Virus record (IMG/VR): IMGVR_UViG_3300045988_169405
Reading direction: 5' to 3' (one strand)
Length of the DNA stretch: 64,000 nucleotides
DNA from: a virus
The notes beneath the pieces are model-generated. The model did not search any database. It was not told where the DNA came from and was given only the letters and a program-made list of their open reading frames with translations. Each line of letters starts with the position of its first letter. The stretch's first letter is position 1. Below, in pieces: positions 10,626 to 21,986 of this stretch. The position numbers and the translations under genes were made by a program.

Positions 10626-10756
10626 TTATGCGGGGCGGGTCGGGTATCACTACCCGGCGGTGACCATCAAGCTAACCAAGCGGCTAACTGTATAGGCCTT
10701 GACAGTACCCGTAAAGGGCAATGTCCGTTTAACCTCTCCCGTCTCTCACAGGCGAG
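10626..10756. repeat. copy A of a ~130-bp duplicated structured element (hairpin CGGGTA-tcac-TACCCG, then GGTGACCATCAAGCT...CAATGTCCGTTTAACCTCTCCCGTCTCTCACAGGCGAGG)
   Basis: aligned by eye to copy B. Confidence 0.6.
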
Positions 10757-10823
10757 GTGTTGTACCGATTATATCATATTTTCTGTCCGGTAGCACCTAT
10801 TGGCGCTCTTACCTTGTTCAGGT

Positions 10824-11234
10824 TTATGCATTGGGTGCCTTGATGTATCGACCTGTGAGGCGGATGTGAAGCGCCAAGTTCAGTAGGTGCGAAACCATGA
10901 GCACGGTGTTGTCTGTAATGTTAGCACCTGCAAGAGCTTTGGATACCGCAAAGACGGAGGCGATAACACATGCCACCTCGAAGGCGATAGTGAAAGCGAA
11001 AATTATTGCCGCTGGGACGCGGTGATGCTTAAAAAGGTATGTCCGCCAAAGCTGAACAGCAAAGGTGTACCCAAAAGCGCTACCGATAGCTCTACAGGCG
11101 GTAGGGATGAAGATTGCCGAGGTTAGCACTAGAAGCCAGTGCATGACCTGTTCGGGGTGACTCCACATTTCCATATATGGGGGGTTCCTGTCTGATAGGT
11201 AAGGGGGGGGTGGTAGCTTGGGTTGTGCTACCAC
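10824..11234 (-). CDS. small membrane protein
   Basis: 3-4 hydrophobic helices. Confidence 0.5.
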   Translation of the reverse strand: MVAQPKLPPPPYLSDRNPPYMEMWSHPEQVMHWLLVLTSAIFIPTACRAIGSAFGYTFAVQLWRTYLFKHHRVPAAIIFAFTIAFEVACVIASVFAVSKALAGANITDNTVLMVSHLLNLALHIRLTGRYIKAPNA

Positions 11235-11258
11235 CCCCTAGCATGTTTAGTGAATCGT

Positions 11259-11828
11259 TTAGTTGTTTACGTCTCGAACGTTCACCTTGAACTCACCCTT
11301 TACGTTTACGCCGTCCTTGGGTGCAACGATGGTGATTTCACCGTTACGGTACTGTTCCTTAGTGCCGATAGCGTAGGCATAATCTACGTCTTCAACAATG
11401 ATACGCACCTTGGAGCGGGGTACGGTGTTGCTGTACAGTTCGCCTTCCTGGGTTCGCAGGGTGTAGTTTAGGTACACTTCGTAGCTAGTGTTCAGGGTGC
11501 CGTCCTGTGCCGAGCCACCGCCCACATCAGCGGTGAGCTTTCCAATCCTATTGCCAGATTGCGTATCAGTATCACTGTTGCGGTGGGGGTGCTCTTCACC
11601 AGTAAGGTGCTGACGGGTTGTAAGGTTAGCGTTGATGACCACAGCTTCCTTAGCCTTCTCAGTAGGTTCAGGGCTAGGGGTTGCACTGGTGGTAGCGGTT
11701 GCCGTTGCGGTAGTGGTTTCTTCTACCTTGTTTGCAGTATTGGTACTGGAACAGCCGGTGAGCGCGATAGCACCGATAAGAGCGGCGGCGGTCAGCTTGG
11801 AGAGCTTCATTGTTTGGGTTCCTTTCAA
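11259..11828 (-). CDS. lipoprotein (signal peptide + lipobox LTGC, T/A-rich linker)
   Basis: MKLSKLTAAALIGAIALTGCSS. Confidence 0.6.
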   Translation of the reverse strand: MKGTQTMKLSKLTAAALIGAIALTGCSSTNTANKVEETTTATATATTSATPSPEPTEKAKEAVVINANLTTRQHLTGEEHPHRNSDTDTQSGNRIGKLTADVGGGSAQDGTLNTSYEVYLNYTLRTQEGELYSNTVPRSKVRIIVEDVDYAYAIGTKEQYRNGEITIVAPKDGVNVKGEFKVNVRDVNN

Positions 11829-11856
11829 GGGGTAAGGGTTGTTATTGCTAACAGGT

Positions 11857-12108
11857 TTAGCGGGTCTGCATGGAAATGCAGGGGGTGTCTACGAACGCTT
11901 CCAGGGCGCGCTTAGGGTTTCCAGCGTCAGCGGTACGGTCAAGGTAGATAGGGTATTCCTTTACGCCGCGTGCATGGTATGCGAAAGTGCCAGGGCGCAA
12001 CTTCCAATCCTTATTATAGGTGATGATACCTACGCGCTCGTGGTTACCGTTCATGATTCGGTAAGTATCGTTTTGCACCTTCACCAAGTGGAGACCCTTG
12101 TATGCCAT
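11857..12108 (-). CDS. hypothetical protein (83 aa)
   Basis: ORF. Confidence 0.5.
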   Translation of the reverse strand: MAYKGLHLVKVQNDTYRIMNGNHERVGIITYNKDWKLRPGTFAYHARGVKEYPIYLDRTADAGNPKRALEAFVDTPCISMQTR

Positions 12109-12207
12109 TGTAACGCTTCCTTTCCGCTCTGATTAGTGGTTAGTGGTATTTGCCCCGCTAGGCGCTTAGGTGAGCACCTAGTGGGGGTTTAGGGGGCACT
12201 ATAGGGC

Positions 12208-12462
12208 TTAGTAACCCTCTTCGTCTTCATCGTATTCATAAGAACCCATGCCGTGATTTACGCAATAGGCACCCAGGGTGGCGAGCAGGTGGTCATAATT
12301 GCCACTCATGGCTTCATTGATTACCATGTCAATGTCAGCCTTATCCCAGCCGTCACGTCGAGCCTGCTGTGCGAAGCCGCCCATAAGGTTGAAGGCGTTA
12401 CCGTCCTGACCAATCATCTTGTAATTGACCTCGCAAACGGGGGTGAAATTCTCAAGAGCCAT
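12208..12462 (-). CDS. hypothetical acidic protein (84 aa)
   Basis: ORF; promoter module 12555-12612. Confidence 0.55.
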   Translation of the reverse strand: MALENFTPVCEVNYKMIGQDGNAFNLMGGFAQQARRDGWDKADIDMVINEAMSGNYDHLLATLGAYCVNHGMGSYEYDEDEEGY

Positions 12463-12554
12463 TTGGTATACTTCCTCTCTAGAAGTAGTAGTAGATATAA
12501 GGTCTAGCCATGTTTAGCTAGTACCTTTGAGGTTTCCCTCTTGCTTATGTAACC

Positions 12555-12612
12555 ATTATGGCACACTCTAAACCCCTATGCAAGCCGAAATCAAGTGAAA
12601 TAGCTCACATAG
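12555..12612 (-). promoter_or_regulatory. conserved promoter module (TTGCAT-N17-CATAAT; AGTGAAATAGCTCACA)
   Basis: copy 4. Confidence 0.6.
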
Positions 12613-12690
12613 GGGTTTATAGGGGTAAAGTGCCTTATAAATAGGGCTTCTTCTTACTCTACTTCTTCAAGAAAGCACCAAAGAACACGC

Positions 12691-13761
12691 CTATGAGATA
12701 GGTGTCAGTAGAGTATCTACAGCACGGACAATATTGCGCCCATAGTAACTATGCCGCATGTCTTCACTAATAGGAACATTGCCATGCGCTACCGTGGGCT
12801 CAATCTTTTCACCCAAATAGACAGGTGGGGCAATTCGGATAGCACACACCGTAGAAGTAGGTGCACCCGTGACATACGGTTGCTTGTTCTTACCGGCGGA
12901 AAGTGCATACACTTCATTATTAGGGGTAGTGACATAAGCGAAAGATGCTTCACTGAAACTCAAACAAAGCTTGTCCAACAAATAGGTGGATACTGCCGCA
13001 CTGCAATCTGCGTAACCATGAGGATAGCCCATATCATTATCAGTATCCGACCCAGCAGATGCAATAATAGATTCAAGAATGGTTCGATAATTCAAGTCAT
13101 GTGAGACAATCACCTTATACCCAACCATTGCCCCATACTGATTAACAAGCGCATAAGCACCACAATCACTATAGGGCGGCATCTTAGCCACGAGCCTGCC
13201 GGTTTCCACCTCTGAATCCGCGTTAGTCATAAAGTACCCCTTCGGGTCTTCGCCTTCACCATGAGGAAGTACAGCCATAGCCACATCACGCACAGTTTCC
13301 GAAAGAGCATGACCTACAGTAGTTTCACTAAGATGCCGACCACCTGAGCGTGCATAACTATACCCATGCTCACCACTCCTTAGATGCTTCGGCAAGTCAC
13401 TCAATCGGGTAGTGGTATTGAAAATACTGTATTCCTCAGCGGTATAAACGGCAACAGACTTGGCGGTTACGATACTGTAATACTTACCTTGCGGGTCTGC
13501 AACTGCTGTAACAGTGAGAGTGAATACATTGCCTTCATTGTCGATAATGTACCGCTTAGAAGTATTAGTTGGTGCTTCACTACCCGCCGGGTCATCAACG
13601 CTAACCCAGGTAAGAGGTTGCGGTGGCTTATACCCGGCGGGCGGTTCAGCCGTGATAGTCGCGATAGTTGTAGTCATCTCAGAGGTCAAGAGATTATCCA
13701 ACAGAAGCTTGAGTACTTCCTCAATAGTGACCTTGTTTTCAATATGTACAGATGCGTACAT
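12691..13761 (-). CDS. hypothetical protein (356 aa)
   Basis: ORF. Confidence 0.6.
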   Translation of the reverse strand: MYASVHIENKVTIEEVLKLLLDNLLTSEMTTTIATITAEPPAGYKPPQPLTWVSVDDPAGSEAPTNTSKRYIIDNEGNVFTLTVTAVADPQGKYYSIVTAKSVAVYTAEEYSIFNTTTRLSDLPKHLRSGEHGYSYARSGGRHLSETTVGHALSETVRDVAMAVLPHGEGEDPKGYFMTNADSEVETGRLVAKMPPYSDCGAYALVNQYGAMVGYKVIVSHDLNYRTILESIIASAGSDTDNDMGYPHGYADCSAAVSTYLLDKLCLSFSEASFAYVTTPNNEVYALSAGKNKQPYVTGAPTSTVCAIRIAPPVYLGEKIEPTVAHGNVPISEDMRHSYYGRNIVRAVDTLLTPIS

Positions 13762-21051: not shown

Positions 21052-21144
21052 ATATAGAGAAACAACCACTAGTCAGGTACACGCACACGGAAAGAAAGAT
21101 TAAGAAACGTGGCGTGTAACCACAACAAGGGGTATATTTCCCTT

Positions 21145-21235
21145 AGAAGCCTGGAGTGGAATCGAACCACTATCTCCCGGCGACGAAGAAACAAGTACTG
21201 TAACACCAACTCTGGAAAAGGGAGCCAGTCATGTT
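21145..21235 (-). tRNA. tRNA-like element with a canonical T-arm (AGTGGTTCGATTCCACT) but no resolvable acceptor/anticodon cloverleaf
   Basis: the T-arm is read directly; no complementary 5' acceptor was found. Confidence 0.25.
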
Positions 21236-21400
21236 TACTATGTCGTTCAGGCGCATTACCAAAATGCTACCAGACCAAAAGTGAAAACGTGCAGGTACCG
21301 AGCCTGCACCCACCACAAAGGGTCGCTCTTCCTTGGAGACGTAACGCTTTCACTATAGACACTAGAACAAAACCAACTAGTATTATCCGTTCTAGTGAAG

Positions 21401-21473
21401 AGCCTCCTACCGGACTCGAACCGGTGACCCTCTGTTTACAAGACAGATGCTCTACCAACTGAGCTAAGAAGGC
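21401..21473 (-). tRNA. tRNA-Thr (UGU)
   Basis: TCTGT-CTTGTAA-ACAGA. Confidence 0.7.
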
Positions 21474-21475
21474 GG

Positions 21476-21547
21476 GGTGTGTGACGGGAATCGCACCCGC
21501 TACTACTTGCGCCACAAGCAAGCGCCTCGCTATTCGGCTTCACACAC
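21476..21547 (-). tRNA. tRNA-His (GUG), unusual T-loop TGCGATT
   Basis: CTTGC-TTGTGGC-GCAAG; discriminator C. Confidence 0.6.
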
Positions 21548-21549
21548 AG

Positions 21550-21623
21550 TGCCCCCTACTGGACTCGAACCAGTGACCCACGCCGTGTAAAGGCGGCACT
21601 CTAACCAACTGAGCTAAAGGGGC
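21550..21623 (-). tRNA. tRNA-Val (UAC)
   Basis: CCGCC-TTTACAC-GGCGT. Confidence 0.6.
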
Positions 21624-21713
21624 GAAACGCATACTATGTCCACTATCTTCCATCAACCAGTGAGGAAACCGCGCCCATTACCCGTATGCGAGAGGCAAAA
21701 AGCCCGGTACAGT

Positions 21714-21787
21714 AGTCCCTGCTGGACTTGAACCAGCGACACCCACCGTATCAGAGTGGTGCTCTAACCTGCTGAGCTAAGAGACTG
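21714..21787 (-). tRNA. tRNA-Ile (GAU)
   Basis: CCACT-CTGATAC-GGTGG. Confidence 0.65.
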
Positions 21788-21866
21788 AAAGTTGCGTACA
21801 ACTTATTGGTATATCCAGTAATCTGAGGGGCTAGTGCCTCACGGATTACGGTGAGCCTACCCCATG

Positions 21867-21986
21867 AATATGAGGCGGGTCTAACATTTTGTTAGACGGT
21901 GACCCTCAAGCTGACCGAAGCCAACCCTGGTCTTGACACTACCCGAAAGCAATGTCCGTTTAACCTCTCCCGTCTCTCACAGGCGA
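21867..21986. repeat. copy B of the duplicated element (hairpin GTCTAAC-atttt-GTTAGAC, same downstream sequence), inside the tRNA array
   Basis: 40-nt identical 3' core; the stem is compensatory. Confidence 0.6.

What the first reader, a model, noticed from the sequence alone, without database searches (positions are those of the whole stretch)
10626..21986. A ~130-bp structured element present twice, 11 kb apart, with a compensatory hairpin
The two copies share near-identical sequence: GGTGACC(A/C)TCAAGCT(A/G)ACC...TTGACA..TACCCG.AAAG..CAATGTCCGTTTAACCTCTCCCGTCTCTCACAGGCGAGG. The hairpin preceding it has a different sequence in each copy but keeps its pairing (CGGGTA-tcac-TACCCG versus GTCTAAC-atttt-GTTAGAC), a covariation signature of a functional RNA or protein-binding structure. 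One copy sits in the 5' region of pspA and the other inside the tRNA array. It is not the common promoter module.
Basis: seen in the sequence. Interest (0 to 1): 0.6.

Follow-up and report, generated by a model that had tools for sequence, protein, structure and literature searches.

The report
New structured RNA in phage tRNA arrays
The two look-alike 120-nt stretches are real copies of a previously undescribed, strongly structure-conserved RNA found hundreds of times in a group of uncultivated giant phages, usually next to tRNA genes; its job is still unknown.

Summary
Two copies (10633-10757 and 21873-21988) share an identical 40-mer and the same fold.

The functional strand is the minus strand, the strand of all 17 tRNAs and of pspA. 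The RNA has four hairpins. H1 is a nearly invariant 5' hairpin. H2, H3 and H4 vary in sequence and are joined by nearly invariant linkers.

The pair is not a local duplication. The H1 20-mer occurs in about 60 metagenomic contigs, many of 160-370 kb. A covariance model finds 312 copies in 829 kb of that DNA. In 150 aligned copies, 98.3% of pair cells are paired, 23 of 35 pairs show double changes, and 15% are G-U pairs that fit only this strand.

Copies start either 22-34 nt after a tRNA or 10-12 nt after an extended -10 promoter box.

There is no match in Rfam 15, no hit in 185,579 bacterial and archaeal genomes, and no homology to YrlA or to T4 rnaC/rnaD.

Best reading: a stable, probably protein-bound non-coding RNA made like a tRNA. 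A cis-acting leader (antitermination or stabilisation) is the main rival. The function is inferred, not shown.

The parts
10633..10757 (-). Copy A of the structured RNA (H1-H4 plus a C-rich tail). It is a divergent member: the H3 internal loop is UAUAC/UGAU instead of AGGAU/UGAG.
   Evidence: CM R1 hit, 74.6 bits, E 1e-17. The minus-strand fold gives 4 hairpins with z -2.3, against z -0.4 for the plus strand.
10768..10776 (-). Extended -10 promoter box TGATATAAT. Ten nt (CGGTACAACA) separate it from the first base of the RNA.
   Evidence: Read from the sequence. The same arrangement, TGnTAnn[AC]T ending 10-14 nt upstream, is found in 25 of 75 non-tRNA-adjacent family members and at almost no other offset.
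10733..10757 (-). H1 of copy A: CCUCGCCUG-UGAGAGA-CGGGAGAGG. It has 8 pairs plus one G.A mismatch and a 7-nt loop.
   Evidence: Identical in both copies. In the family, pair 1-25 is C-G in 107, U-A in 13 and U-G in 1 sequence. Pair 9-17 is G-C in 95, G-U in 18 and A-U in 9. Pair 8-18 is U-G in 116 and C-G in 6.
10701..10725 (-). H2 of copy A (GACAUUGCCC-UUUAC-GGGUACUGUC).
   Evidence: In the family, 9 of the 10 H2 pairs show double changes.
10662..10698 (-). H3 of copy A (GGCC ... GGUC base, internal loop, AGUUAGCC-GCUU-GGUUAGCU top).
   Evidence: All 6 pairs of the upper stem covary in the family.
10639..10658 (-). H4 of copy A (CCGGGUA-GUGA-UACCCG).
   Evidence: 6 of the 7 H4 pairs covary in the family.
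10425..10632 (-). Rest of the 5' leader between copy A and the pspA start codon. It includes a conserved second module (AGUGAAUGUAUUUCGC...CUAGG-loop-CCUAG) and a small hairpin followed by UUGGCUC at 10537-10560.
   Evidence: Sequence. The same modules follow other family members.
9591..10424 (-). PspA/IM30 ORF, the gene downstream of copy A.
   Evidence: Pfam PF04012, E 4.2e-30.
9537..9570 (-). Hairpin AACCCCCUAG...CUAGGGGGUU followed by UUUA. It is the likely intrinsic terminator that closes the copy A-pspA unit.
   Evidence: Repeat family D11. The position relative to the ORF end is read from the sequence. This is an inference.
21873..21988 (-). Copy B of the structured RNA (H1-H4 plus tail).
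   Evidence: CM R1 hit, 99.3 bits, E 4.6e-24. The minus-strand fold has z -2.9 and 0 of 200 shuffles fold as well.
22001..22006 (-). -10-like box TACACT, 12 nt upstream of copy B. The TG extension is absent.
   Evidence: Sequence. The box and the 12-nt distance match the TGCTACACT-N12 class of relatives. This site is weaker than the one at copy A and is an inference.
21964..21988 (-). H1 of copy B (identical to copy A).
21935..21956 (-). H2 of copy B (GACAUUGCU-UUCG-GGUAGUGUC).
21901..21932 (-). H3 of copy B (GACC ... GGUC base, GGGUUGGC-UUCG-GUCAGCUU top). Four G-U pairs exclude the plus strand.
21879..21897 (-). H4 of copy B (GUCUAACA-AAA-UGUUAGAC).
   Evidence: The eighth pair and the AAA triloop are supported by mutual information.
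21853..21875 (-). H5 plus the GGCUC motif (CCUCAU-AUUC-AUGGGG-UAGGCUC) that follows most family members.
   Evidence: Sequence. In 112 of 199 distinct copies the first such motif downstream of H4 is GGCUC, and the motif usually lies just after H5.
21712..21786 (-). tRNA-Ile, the first gene downstream of copy B. Val, His and Thr follow.
   Evidence: ARAGORN and Rfam.

Best explanation
Shown: the two elements belong to a previously undescribed family of structured RNAs, about 110-150 nt for the core and about 165 nt with a fifth hairpin. The family is carried by a clade of uncultivated jumbo phages. The RNA is read on the window's minus strand. It folds into a nearly invariant 5' hairpin H1 (CCUCGCCUG-UGAGAGA-CGGGAGAGG) followed by three hairpins. 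Those hairpins vary freely in sequence and length. Their linkers are nearly fixed: UAAACG, AA, the H3 internal loop AGGAU/UGAG, ACC, and an AAA triloop on H4.

Inferred: the host sigma-70 RNA polymerase makes the RNA in one of two ways. Either it starts a few nucleotides before H1 from an extended -10 promoter, or it produces the RNA as part of a tRNA-array precursor, beginning 22-34 nt after a CCA-less tRNA.

My committed reading: it is a discrete, stable non-coding RNA, laid out and expressed like a tRNA gene. The hairpins act as a rigid scaffold, and H1 plus the junction nucleotides form the surface that a specific partner, most probably a protein, recognises. Where an ORF or tRNA follows without a terminator, as at both window copies, the RNA is the 5' part of that transcript and is probably cut off by the enzymes that mature the tRNAs. 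What the resulting particle does is not known.
For: - **Real and non-random.** The 40-mer is identical in both copies and 0 of 100 shuffles gave a match. The CM hits have E 4.6e-24 and 1e-17 and are the only hits in the window.
- **A family, not a duplication.** The H1 20-mer occurs in 3 IMG/VR jumbo contigs and in 90 stretches from about 60 metagenome contigs. The CM finds 312 copies.
- **Structure.** 98.3% of pair cells are paired, against 86.5% in shuffles and 30-50% when partners are slid. 23 of 35 pairs carry double changes. RNAalifold on a MAFFT alignment gives the same helices, with 13 of 30 pairs compensatory.
- **Strand and RNA nature.** 641 of 4152 pair cells are G-U, and U8-G18 alone accounts for 116 of 122 sequences. 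The minus strand folds with z -2.3 and -2.9, against -0.4 and -1.1 for the plus strand. The element has the same orientation as tRNAs in 1280 of 1281 element-tRNA pairs. UUCG or GNRA loops cap 38-41% of H2 and H3.
- **Gene-like layout.** 98 of 173 distinct upstream contexts have a same-strand tRNA ending no more than 60 nt upstream. Among the exact-H1 copies the median gap to that tRNA is 30 nt. 25 of the other 75 contexts have TGnTAnn[AC]T ending 10-14 nt upstream, against 0 of the 98 tRNA-adjacent ones. tRNAs in the same arrays carry -10 boxes at a similar distance.
- **Stand-alone unit.** At least one copy is a unit of promoter, RNA and terminator (L007 7587).
- **Recognition surface.** Conserved single-stranded nucleotides with freely varying stems are the usual signature of a tertiary or partner-binding RNA (consensus).
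Against: - No transcript has been observed. The promoters are consensus matches, and the box at copy B is weak.
- Only 21 of 163 copies have a terminator-like site within 400 nt downstream. Most copies run on into a tRNA or an ORF (pspA here; a likely thymidylate synthase, identified only by reading its translation, and others in relatives). That equally fits a cis-acting leader.
- No partner protein has been identified.
- The covariation counts come from an alignment fitted to the model, and related copies inflate cell counts.
- Copies within a genome exchange hairpin modules. Part of the sequence invariance could therefore be gene conversion rather than selection.
Confidence: 0.5

Rival explanations
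1. Cis-acting leader or spacer RNA that acts on the transcript or polymerase carrying it. It could be a processive antiterminator or anti-Rho element, like HK022 put, lambda nut or the rrn boxB-boxA leader. Such an element would keep RNA polymerase going through kilobases of untranslated, hairpin-rich tRNA arrays and through 200-270-nt leaders. Alternatively it could be a 5' structure that protects downstream RNA from 5'-end-dependent RNases after the upstream tRNA is cut off.
For: - The element always sits at the start of a unit: 10-12 nt after a -10 box, or right after a tRNA.
- It precedes tRNAs and unrelated ORFs alike (pspA; other ORFs), so its role is independent of what follows.
- It recurs along long untranslated arrays, much as boxA recurs in the rrn leader and spacer (established knowledge).
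- Few copies are followed by a terminator (21 of 163).
- An invariant hairpin next to a conserved single-stranded stretch resembles the boxB-plus-boxA logic.
Against: - At least one copy is a closed unit of promoter, RNA and terminator with nothing downstream to regulate (L007 7587).
- No boxA-like sequence (GCUCUUUAACAA) is present in the consensus.
- A 130-nt, four-helix RNA with fixed junctions is far more than a 5' stabiliser needs.
- Copy number per genome (at least 15-16 in two IMG/VR contigs) tracks tRNA genes one-to-one in places, which an RNAP-modifying element would not require.
Confidence: 0.27
2. Self-cleaving ribozyme or dedicated RNase recognition module that punctuates tRNA-array precursors, cutting at its sharply defined 5' edge (...A|CCUCGCC).
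For: - The 5' boundary is sharply defined, with A preceding it in 128 of 173 contexts.
- Junction nucleotides are conserved while stems vary.
- The element sits between stable RNAs that must be separated.
Against: - No Rfam ribozyme family matches, even at E<=10 on short windows.
- H1 closes on itself over a 7-nt loop, which is incompatible with an HDV-like P1.
- No pseudoknot or long-range covariation was detected.
- In promoter-proximal copies there are only about 3-5 nt to cut off.
Confidence: 0.07
3. A new kind of Y RNA: the RNA partner of the phage-encoded Ro60/TROVE protein (ORF 520-2121, minus strand).
For: - The window encodes a Ro60-like protein (TROVE, E 1.5e-11; vWA). Its best named relatives are annotated 'Ro-like RNA binding protein'.
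- A near-identical Ro60 (98.9%) lies on a related contig, L058, that also carries two elements.
- Bacterial and phage Y RNAs are about 80-130 nt, are often multiple per genome, and are tRNA-associated (PMC4201824).
Against: - The element lacks the GNCGAA(N)G motif, the T- and D-arm-like loops and the 5'/3' closing stem that define YrlA (PMC4201824; consensus).
- Rfam YrlA gives only sub-threshold hits on true tRNAs and none on the element.
- Copy A is 8.5 kb from the Ro60 gene, not adjacent to it.
- A different repeat, three units of about 235 nt each with a T-arm-like hairpin, sits directly beside the Ro60 gene.
- No close Ro60 relative was found in IMG/VR, which includes the 3 contigs richest in the element. 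The method finds close relatives only.
Confidence: 0.05
4. DNA-level feature with no RNA function: a segmental duplication, a MITE/REP-like mobile repeat or recombination site, or a plus-strand promoter using the conserved TTGACA.
For: - The element is multi-copy.
- Hairpin modules are swapped between orthologous copies in close relatives (window A versus L093, L028, L013 and L052), so recombination between copies does occur.
- A perfect TTGACA is present on the plus strand.
Against: - There is strong strand asymmetry: 15% of pair cells are G-U and fewer than 2% are non-pairs.
- RNA-type tetraloops are enriched.
- Stems differ completely in sequence yet stay paired. A recently spread repeat would show the opposite.
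- The element is fixed in phase with promoters and tRNA 3' ends.
- The distance from TTGACA to any -10-like box changes with H2 length, 12-39 nt, so it is not a promoter.
- The only matches in bacterial genomes are chance hits.
Confidence: 0.03

Closest known systems
Phage T4 small stable RNAs rnaC (species 1, 139 nt) and rnaD (species 2, 119 nt)
   Same: Both are non-tRNA structured RNAs of similar size. They are encoded inside a phage tRNA cluster, directly downstream of a tRNA on the same strand: tRNA-Arg, then rnaD, then rnaC, with gaps of 1 and 6 nt (annotation). They are presumably released from the same precursor. Their function is still unknown (own knowledge).
   Different: There is no sequence or structure homology. 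The best CM score in the T4 region is 7.6 bits, E 0.13. rnaC ends in a tRNA-like T arm (CCGGGUUCGAAUCCCGG), and the element has none. T4 has one copy of each, whereas here there are at least 15 copies per genome in some relatives.
Bacterial and phage Y RNAs (YrlA, Rfam RF02553) bound by Ro60/Rsr
   Same: The size is about 100-130 nt. Several copies per genome can occur. They are associated with tRNA-like biology. A Ro60 gene is present in this window.
   Different: The defining motifs are absent: GNCGAA, T/D arms and a terminal stem. The element is not adjacent to the Ro60 gene.
Cis-acting antitermination RNAs: HK022 putL/putR, lambda nut (boxA+boxB), rrn leader boxB-boxA-boxC
   Same: These are multi-copy, promoter-proximal structured RNAs. 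They have conserved hairpins, their copies differ by compensatory changes, and they act irrespective of the downstream gene. The rrn version serves untranslated stable-RNA operons (own knowledge).
   Different: put has two hairpins in about 70 nt; this element has four in about 125 nt. No boxA consensus is present. Some copies end in a terminator with nothing downstream.
GOLLD and ROOL large ornate RNAs
   Same: They are orphan, highly structured RNAs of phages and prophages, typically found beside tRNA genes (own knowledge).
   Different: They are 4-6 times larger. The Rfam 15 scan, which I expect includes both families (own knowledge, not checked here), gave only tRNA matches in the window and among the listed matches in 121 kb of related loci.
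T7 RNase III processing sites (R0.3 ... R18.5)
   Same: They form a family of about ten conserved hairpins with an internal loop. They are spread between genes of one phage and are used to cut polycistronic RNA and leave stabilising ends (own knowledge).
   Different: They are single irregular hairpins, not a four-helix RNA with an invariant 5' hairpin. No evidence here points to RNase III.

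Membership tests
Any Rfam 15 family (4227 models) | Score at or above the family gathering threshold | tested here: not met
   The whole window at gathering thresholds gives only 17 tRNAs. Both copies scanned at E<=10 give only chance-level hits: CAESAR at 15 bits, and S4-Flavobacteria and HOXB13-AS1. In 121 kb of related loci, all 150 listed matches were tRNAs; 46 lower-scoring matches were not listed.
YrlA / bacterial Y RNA | GNCGAA(N0-1)G motif near the 5' end (proposed Rsr contact) | tested here: not met
   The motif is defined in PMC4201824. 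It is absent from the family consensus and from both window copies.
YrlA / bacterial Y RNA | Nearly invariant T-arm-like and D-arm-like stem-loops (tRNA-like domain) | tested here: not met
   The H4 loop is an AAA triloop, and H2/H3 loops are mostly UUCG or GNRA. The RF02553 model gives no hit on the element.
YrlA / bacterial Y RNA | Encoded adjacent to the Ro60/rsr gene | tested here: not met
   The Ro60 ORF is at 520-2121(-). The nearest copy starts at 10757, 8.6 kb away, with several ORFs in between.
T4 rnaC / rnaD | Sequence and structure homology to the T4 RNAs | tested here: not met
   CM R1 with filters off on T4 69.5-74.5 kb gives a best score of 7.6 bits, E 0.13. The folds differ.
T4 rnaC / rnaD | Stable RNA encoded in a tRNA cluster, same strand, directly after a tRNA | tested here: met
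   The location is met. 98 of 173 distinct upstream contexts have a same-strand tRNA ending no more than 60 nt upstream; among the exact-H1 copies the gaps are mostly 22-34 nt. The T4 layout is shown. Stability of the RNA itself is not testable here.
HK022 put-type antiterminator RNA | Two adjacent stem-loops (about 70 nt) downstream of an early promoter that make RNAP terminator-resistant in cis | not testable with these tools
   The promoter-proximal position is met. The architecture differs: four hairpins in about 125 nt. The activity cannot be tested computationally.
nut / rrn antitermination site | boxA consensus (GCUCUUUAACAA-like) next to a boxB hairpin | tested here: not met
   The consensus single-stranded segments are GUGGnUAAUCUAAACG, AA, ACC and CCCAnCC. 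No boxA is present.
Intrinsic terminator | G+C-rich hairpin immediately followed by a U tract | tested here: not met
   H4 is followed by CCCGCC or CCCACC, not by Us. The terminator scan reports none at either copy.
   TTGACA is the 3' strand of H2 plus the AA linker. Its distance to the next conserved block varies with H2 length, 12-39 nt. No plus-strand site was reported there.
MITE / REP-like DNA repeat | Copies related by descent with random rather than compensatory differences; no strand-specific pairing rules | tested here: not met
   23 of 35 pairs have double compensatory changes. 15% of pair cells are G-U against fewer than 2% non-pairs.

The most novel reading that the evidence does not exclude
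The element is the recognition core of a new phage RNP or RNA machine tied to tRNA-array expression. One possibility is a factor-independent or phage-factor-dependent antitermination/anti-Rho RNA that lets host RNA polymerase transcribe kilobases of untranslated tRNA genes. Another is an abundant decoy or scaffold RNA that works with the phage's RNA-repair and quality-control genes (Ro60, RNA ligase) against host tRNA-targeting defences. Either would be a new functional class of phage non-coding RNA.
Probability: 0.3. Interest if true: 0.85.

Novelty: categorically new. Interest (0 to 1): 0.68.

Why it matters
Jumbo phages carry large tRNA arrays whose expression and processing are barely understood. 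tRNA supply is now known to be a battleground between phages and host defences.

This RNA family offers unusually strong comparative evidence. It has over 300 copies, covariation in every variable helix, and fixed junction nucleotides. It is wired into those arrays as tightly as the tRNAs themselves, and it also leads protein genes such as pspA.

Such a pattern normally marks an RNA with a specific molecular partner or activity, yet it matches nothing catalogued. It is therefore a concrete, clonable candidate. The full RNA is about 125-165 nt and its promoter is defined. It could be used to discover a new RNA-protein or RNA-polymerase interaction, and to ask how long untranslated stable-RNA operons are transcribed and matured in phage infection.

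Caveat on the novelty label: "categorically new" refers to the RNA family, which has no homologue and failed every membership test. It does not refer to a demonstrated new mechanism.

Tried and rejected
1. **Plus-strand RNA with a long-range 5'/3' stem (GGGGCGGG with CCCGUCUC).** It looked attractive in the two window copies. It was rejected because the partner is invariant, the tail varies freely, and the G-U asymmetry excludes that strand.
2. **Closing helix or pseudoknot between the linker after H1 (GGUGG) and the tail (CCACC), which would make a cloverleaf.** There is no covariation: the same linker occurs with CCAACC, CCACCC, CCGCCC and CCGUCU tails. It is also absent from the mutual-information ranking.
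3. **Pairing of the downstream GGCUC motif with GGGUC of the H3-H4 junction.** A cross-tabulation shows no covariation.
4. **Ro-binding helix.** The plus strand reads GGUCUUGAC...GUCCG, reminiscent of the vertebrate Y RNA GGUCCGA/UUGACC. It is on the wrong strand and in permuted order, and the bacterial YrlA features are absent.
5. **K-turn in the H3 internal loop.** A tandem G.A is possible in the AGGAU/UGAG type. The 3-nt bulge geometry is not met, and window copies A (UAUAC/UGAU) and B (AGGGU) lack it. This was judged by inspection only.
6. **Small ORF starting at the AUG of AUGGCUC.** The triplet is often UAG or GCG, so it is not coding.
7. **Searches that found nothing.**
   - Near-identical phage in INPHARED: only tRNA hits.
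   - The 35-mer in IMG/VR.
   - PspA and Ro60 close relatives in IMG/VR.
   - Exact PspA look-up.
   - The H1 20-mer in 185,579 genomes.
   - A degenerate junction pattern in genomes gave 13 scattered single hits. That is about the number expected by chance, and none matched the CM.
   - The H1 sequence in the full text of 8 million papers.
   - Supplements of the phage structured-RNA catalogue PMC10690425 are not held.
8. **Terminator downstream as a general rule.** It is present for only 21 of 163 copies.

Full report
**1. The observation**

Both ends of the reported interval hold the element. The 40-mer GCAATGTCCGTTTAACCTCTCCCGTCTCTCACAGGCGAGG is identical at 10718-10757 and 21949-21988. 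It matches nowhere else in the window at up to 3 mismatches, and none of 100 shuffles gave any match. Upstream on the + strand the two copies share further blocks, separated by stretches that differ.

**2. Which strand**

Everything around the copies is on the minus strand. This includes 17 tRNA genes at 20537-23659, the PspA/IM30 ORF 9591-10424, and an RNA ligase ORF 13860-14990.

Folded as RNA, the minus strand of both copies gives the same four consecutive hairpins, with z -2.3 and -2.9. The plus strand gives unrelated folds with z -0.4 and -1.1. Copy B's third hairpin contains four G-U pairs, which would be C.A mismatches on the other strand.

**3. It is a family, not a duplication**

- The 35-mer was absent from IMG/VR.
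- The 20-mer covering H1 (CCCGTCTCTCACAGGCGAGG on +) occurs in three IMG/VR contigs of 307-361 kb, several times each.
- It is absent from 185,579 bacterial and archaeal genomes.
- It occurs in 90 stretches from about 60 metagenome contigs, some 20 of them 160-371 kb long.
- Extraction gave 152 exact-H1 copies (126 distinct sequences), and 243 copies when up to 4 mismatches in H1 are allowed.
- Some contigs are close relatives of the window. Their PspA, RNA ligase and neighbouring ORFs are 93-99% identical, and L058 carries a Ro60 that is 98.9% identical.
- No cultured phage in INPHARED is close.

**4. Structure and covariation**

I built a covariance model from 17 non-window copies with a hand-drawn structure (A3, R1).

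- It finds exactly two sites in the window: 21873-21988(-) at 99.3 bits, E 4.6e-24, and 10633-10757(-) at 74.6 bits, E 1e-17.
- It finds 312 sites at E<=1e-3 in 829 kb of related loci.
- On the 150 best hits (122 distinct), 98.3% of pair cells are standard pairs. The figure is 86.5% when partners are shuffled and 30-50% when they are slid by 1-3 columns.
- 23 of 35 pairs carry changes on both sides, in 525 cells.
- Even the nearly invariant H1 covaries. Pair 1-25 is C-G in 107, U-A in 13 and U-G in 1 sequence. Pair 9-17 is G-C in 95, G-U in 18 and A-U in 9. Pair 8-18 is U-G in 116 and C-G in 6.
- Summing the table, 641 of 4152 cells are G-U and fewer than 2% are non-pairs. This fixes the strand and argues for RNA rather than duplex DNA.

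This alignment is fitted to the model. As a control, RNAalifold on a plain MAFFT alignment of 27 copies predicts the same helices, with 13 of 30 pairs compensatory.

Mutual information adds an eighth pair to H4, leaving a conserved AAA triloop. It reveals no long-range or pseudoknot pairs. H2 and H3 are frequently capped by UUCG or GNRA tetraloops, 38% and 41% respectively, which is typical of RNA scaffolds.

**5. Anatomy (RNA sense)**

- H1 is CCUCGCCUG-UGAGAGA-CGGGAGAGG, with a G.A mismatch.
- A 2-10-nt linker follows, then UAAACG.
- H2 spans 12-39 nt between the fixed flanks.
- The linker AA follows.
- H3 has a GACC/GGUC base, an internal loop AGGAU/UGAG, and a variable top.
- The linker ACC follows.
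- H4 has 8 bp and an AAA loop.
- A C-rich tail follows.
- Usually a fifth small hairpin comes next, followed by (A/U)GGCUC.

Window copy B is a typical short-linker member. Copy A is divergent: its H3 loop is UAUAC/UGAU and one H4 pair is broken.

**6. Context**

Using ARAGORN on all loci (646 tRNAs), the element has the same orientation as tRNAs in 1280 of 1281 element-tRNA pairings. 69 of the 152 exact-H1 copies start no more than 60 nt after a tRNA, with a median gap of 30 nt.

Among 173 distinct upstream contexts, 98 have a tRNA ending no more than 60 nt upstream. The spacer is a small hairpin (GUAACACAC...GGUGUG), and the tRNAs lack an encoded CCA.

Of the other 75 contexts, 25 carry an extended -10 box (TGnTAnn[AC]T) whose last base lies 10-14 nt, mostly 10 or 12, before the first C of H1. 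None of the 98 tRNA-adjacent copies does.

- Window copy A has TGATATAAT at 10776-10768, then 10 nt, then H1.
- Copy B has TACACT at 22006-22001, then 12 nt.

Transcription would thus begin a few nucleotides before H1. tRNAs in the same arrays also carry -10 boxes 10-20 nt before their 5' ends. The element therefore occupies array positions interchangeably with tRNA genes.

Downstream, 88 copies are followed first by a tRNA and 66 by an ORF of at least 80 aa; some of those ORFs are surely spurious. The ORFs seen after promoter-driven copies are unrelated to each other: pspA here, and in relatives a likely thymidylate synthase and several unknowns (the thymidylate synthase call rests only on reading the translation). 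Only 21 of 163 copies have a terminator-like site within 400 nt. L007 7587 is a clean stand-alone unit of promoter, RNA and terminator.

In the window:
- The copy A unit runs from promoter 10776 through the element, a 209-nt further leader and pspA, to a likely terminator at 9570-9537.
- Copy B leads tRNA-Ile, Val, His and Thr.

**7. What it is not**

- *Rfam 15.* It gives only tRNAs at gathering thresholds and nothing credible at E<=10 on the copies. Every listed match in 121 kb of related arrays is a tRNA.
- *Y RNA.* The window encodes a Ro60/TROVE protein, so I tested the Y-RNA idea. The element lacks the GNCGAA motif, the T/D-like arms and the terminal stem of YrlA (PMC4201824). It is not adjacent to the Ro60 gene. 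A different tandem repeat sits next to that gene.
- *T4 rnaC/rnaD.* They share the context, directly after tRNA-Arg, but not sequence or fold.
- *Plus-strand promoter.* The TTGACA is the 3' strand of H2 plus the AA linker, at a variable distance from any -10-like box.
- *Bacterial genomes.* Hits to a degenerate junction pattern are at the chance level, and none matches the model.
- *Literature.* No paper in the library contains the H1 sequence.

**8. How it most likely works**

Shown: this is a selected RNA structure on the minus strand. Its variable helices behave as scaffold. H1 and the junction nucleotides are held fixed.

Inferred: it is transcribed by sigma-70 RNAP from its own extended -10 box or within tRNA precursors.

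I commit, at about 0.5, to a discrete, stable, partner-bound non-coding RNA produced like a tRNA. The grounds are the array layout, the promoter phasing shared with tRNAs, the high copy number, the stand-alone unit, and the T4 precedent.

The main rival, at about 0.27, is a cis-acting leader or spacer. It could be a put/nut/rrn-like antitermination or anti-Rho element for long untranslated arrays and long leaders, or a 5' stabiliser. This fits the position at the start of units and the rarity of terminators. It fits the stand-alone unit poorly.

The remaining rivals are less likely: a ribozyme or processing module (0.07), a Ro60 partner (0.05), and a DNA-level repeat (0.03).

**9. Novelty and verdict**

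The feature is real, highly non-random, and part of a large family restricted, in the collections searched, to one clade of uncultivated jumbo phages. It failed every membership test I could run, so as an RNA family it is new. The general phenomenon, orphan structured RNAs embedded in phage tRNA clusters, has precedents in T4 rnaC/rnaD and in GOLLD/ROOL. The function is unknown, so the label refers to the family and not to a proven mechanism. I score interest at 0.68.

Noticed in passing
window 520-2121 (-): ORF of 533 aa with a TROVE domain and a vWA domain, i.e. a phage-encoded Ro60/Rsr-like RNA-binding protein (Pfam). Its best named relatives are 'Ro-like RNA binding protein' genes of Arthrobacter, Streptomyces and Gordonia phages at 34-39% identity.
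   Followed up: partly
window 2290-2900: Three tandem repeat units of about 230-240 nt lie directly beside the Ro60 gene. Each carries a T-arm-like hairpin on the plus strand (for example GCAGGTTCGACTCTGC near 2830-2860). Rfam YrlA does not hit them at E<=10. They are better positional candidates for Ro60 partner RNAs than the element studied here.
   Followed up: partly
window 10537-10560 (-), 21853-21875 (-); L006 1840-2090: A second recurrent mini-motif consists of a 3-5-bp G/C hairpin (CCCC-GUACAYG-GGGG) followed by (A/U)UGGCUC or GACUC. It occurs after most elements and in runs spaced about 40-60 nt apart before tRNAs. Its role is unknown, and no covariation with the element was found.
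   Followed up: partly
window 22225-22252 (-) after tRNA-Tyr; many loci: tRNAs in these arrays lack an encoded CCA. They are followed by a conserved small hairpin, GUA(A/G)CACACUCUAGGGUGUG, which forms the 22-34-nt spacer before the element in relatives. In the window, about 235 nt are inserted between this hairpin and copy B.
   Followed up: partly
window 10561-10632 (-); L003, L057, L001 and others: A conserved second leader module lies downstream of some elements: AGUGAAUG.AUUUCGC..CUUGG, then a covarying hairpin (CUAGG...CCUAG versus GGUUA...UAACC), then GGAAGC. It lies between the element and the hairpin-GGCUC motif.
   Followed up: no
window copy A versus L093 5579, L028 5077, L013 12907, L052 9350: Orthologous elements have the same promoter, the same H4 and the same downstream leader in phages with about 95% identical proteins. 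Yet they carry completely different H2 and/or H3 hairpins. This indicates module exchange (recombination or gene conversion) between copies.
   Followed up: partly
window 22913-22990 (-): A tRNA-like gene with an 8-nt anticodon loop (ARAGORN reports anticodon 'taac', isotype undetermined; Rfam tRNA 38 bits). It may be a frameshift-suppressor-type or degenerate tRNA.
   Followed up: no
window ~9457-9521, 12547-12611, 15417-15481, 23695-23741, 23819-23883, also 390-454 and 3894-3958: A recurrent promoter module reads TTGCAT-N17-CATAAT on the minus strand, with conserved flanks. It is distinct from the extended -10 boxes that precede the element and may mark a different temporal class.
   Followed up: no
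window 3976-4009 and 9537-9570: The hairpin AACCCCCTAG...CTAGGGGGTT with flanking A/T runs is repeated. It is a likely bidirectional intrinsic terminator. A similar one closes the stand-alone element unit in L007.
   Followed up: no
window 16791-18074 (-): A 427-aa ORF is built from degenerate short repeats, with no Pfam or PHROG match.
   Followed up: no
window 31151-32728 (-): A flotillin/SPFH (Band 7) protein is encoded by the phage along with PspA/IM30. These are two membrane-remodelling or stress proteins on one phage genome.
   Followed up: no
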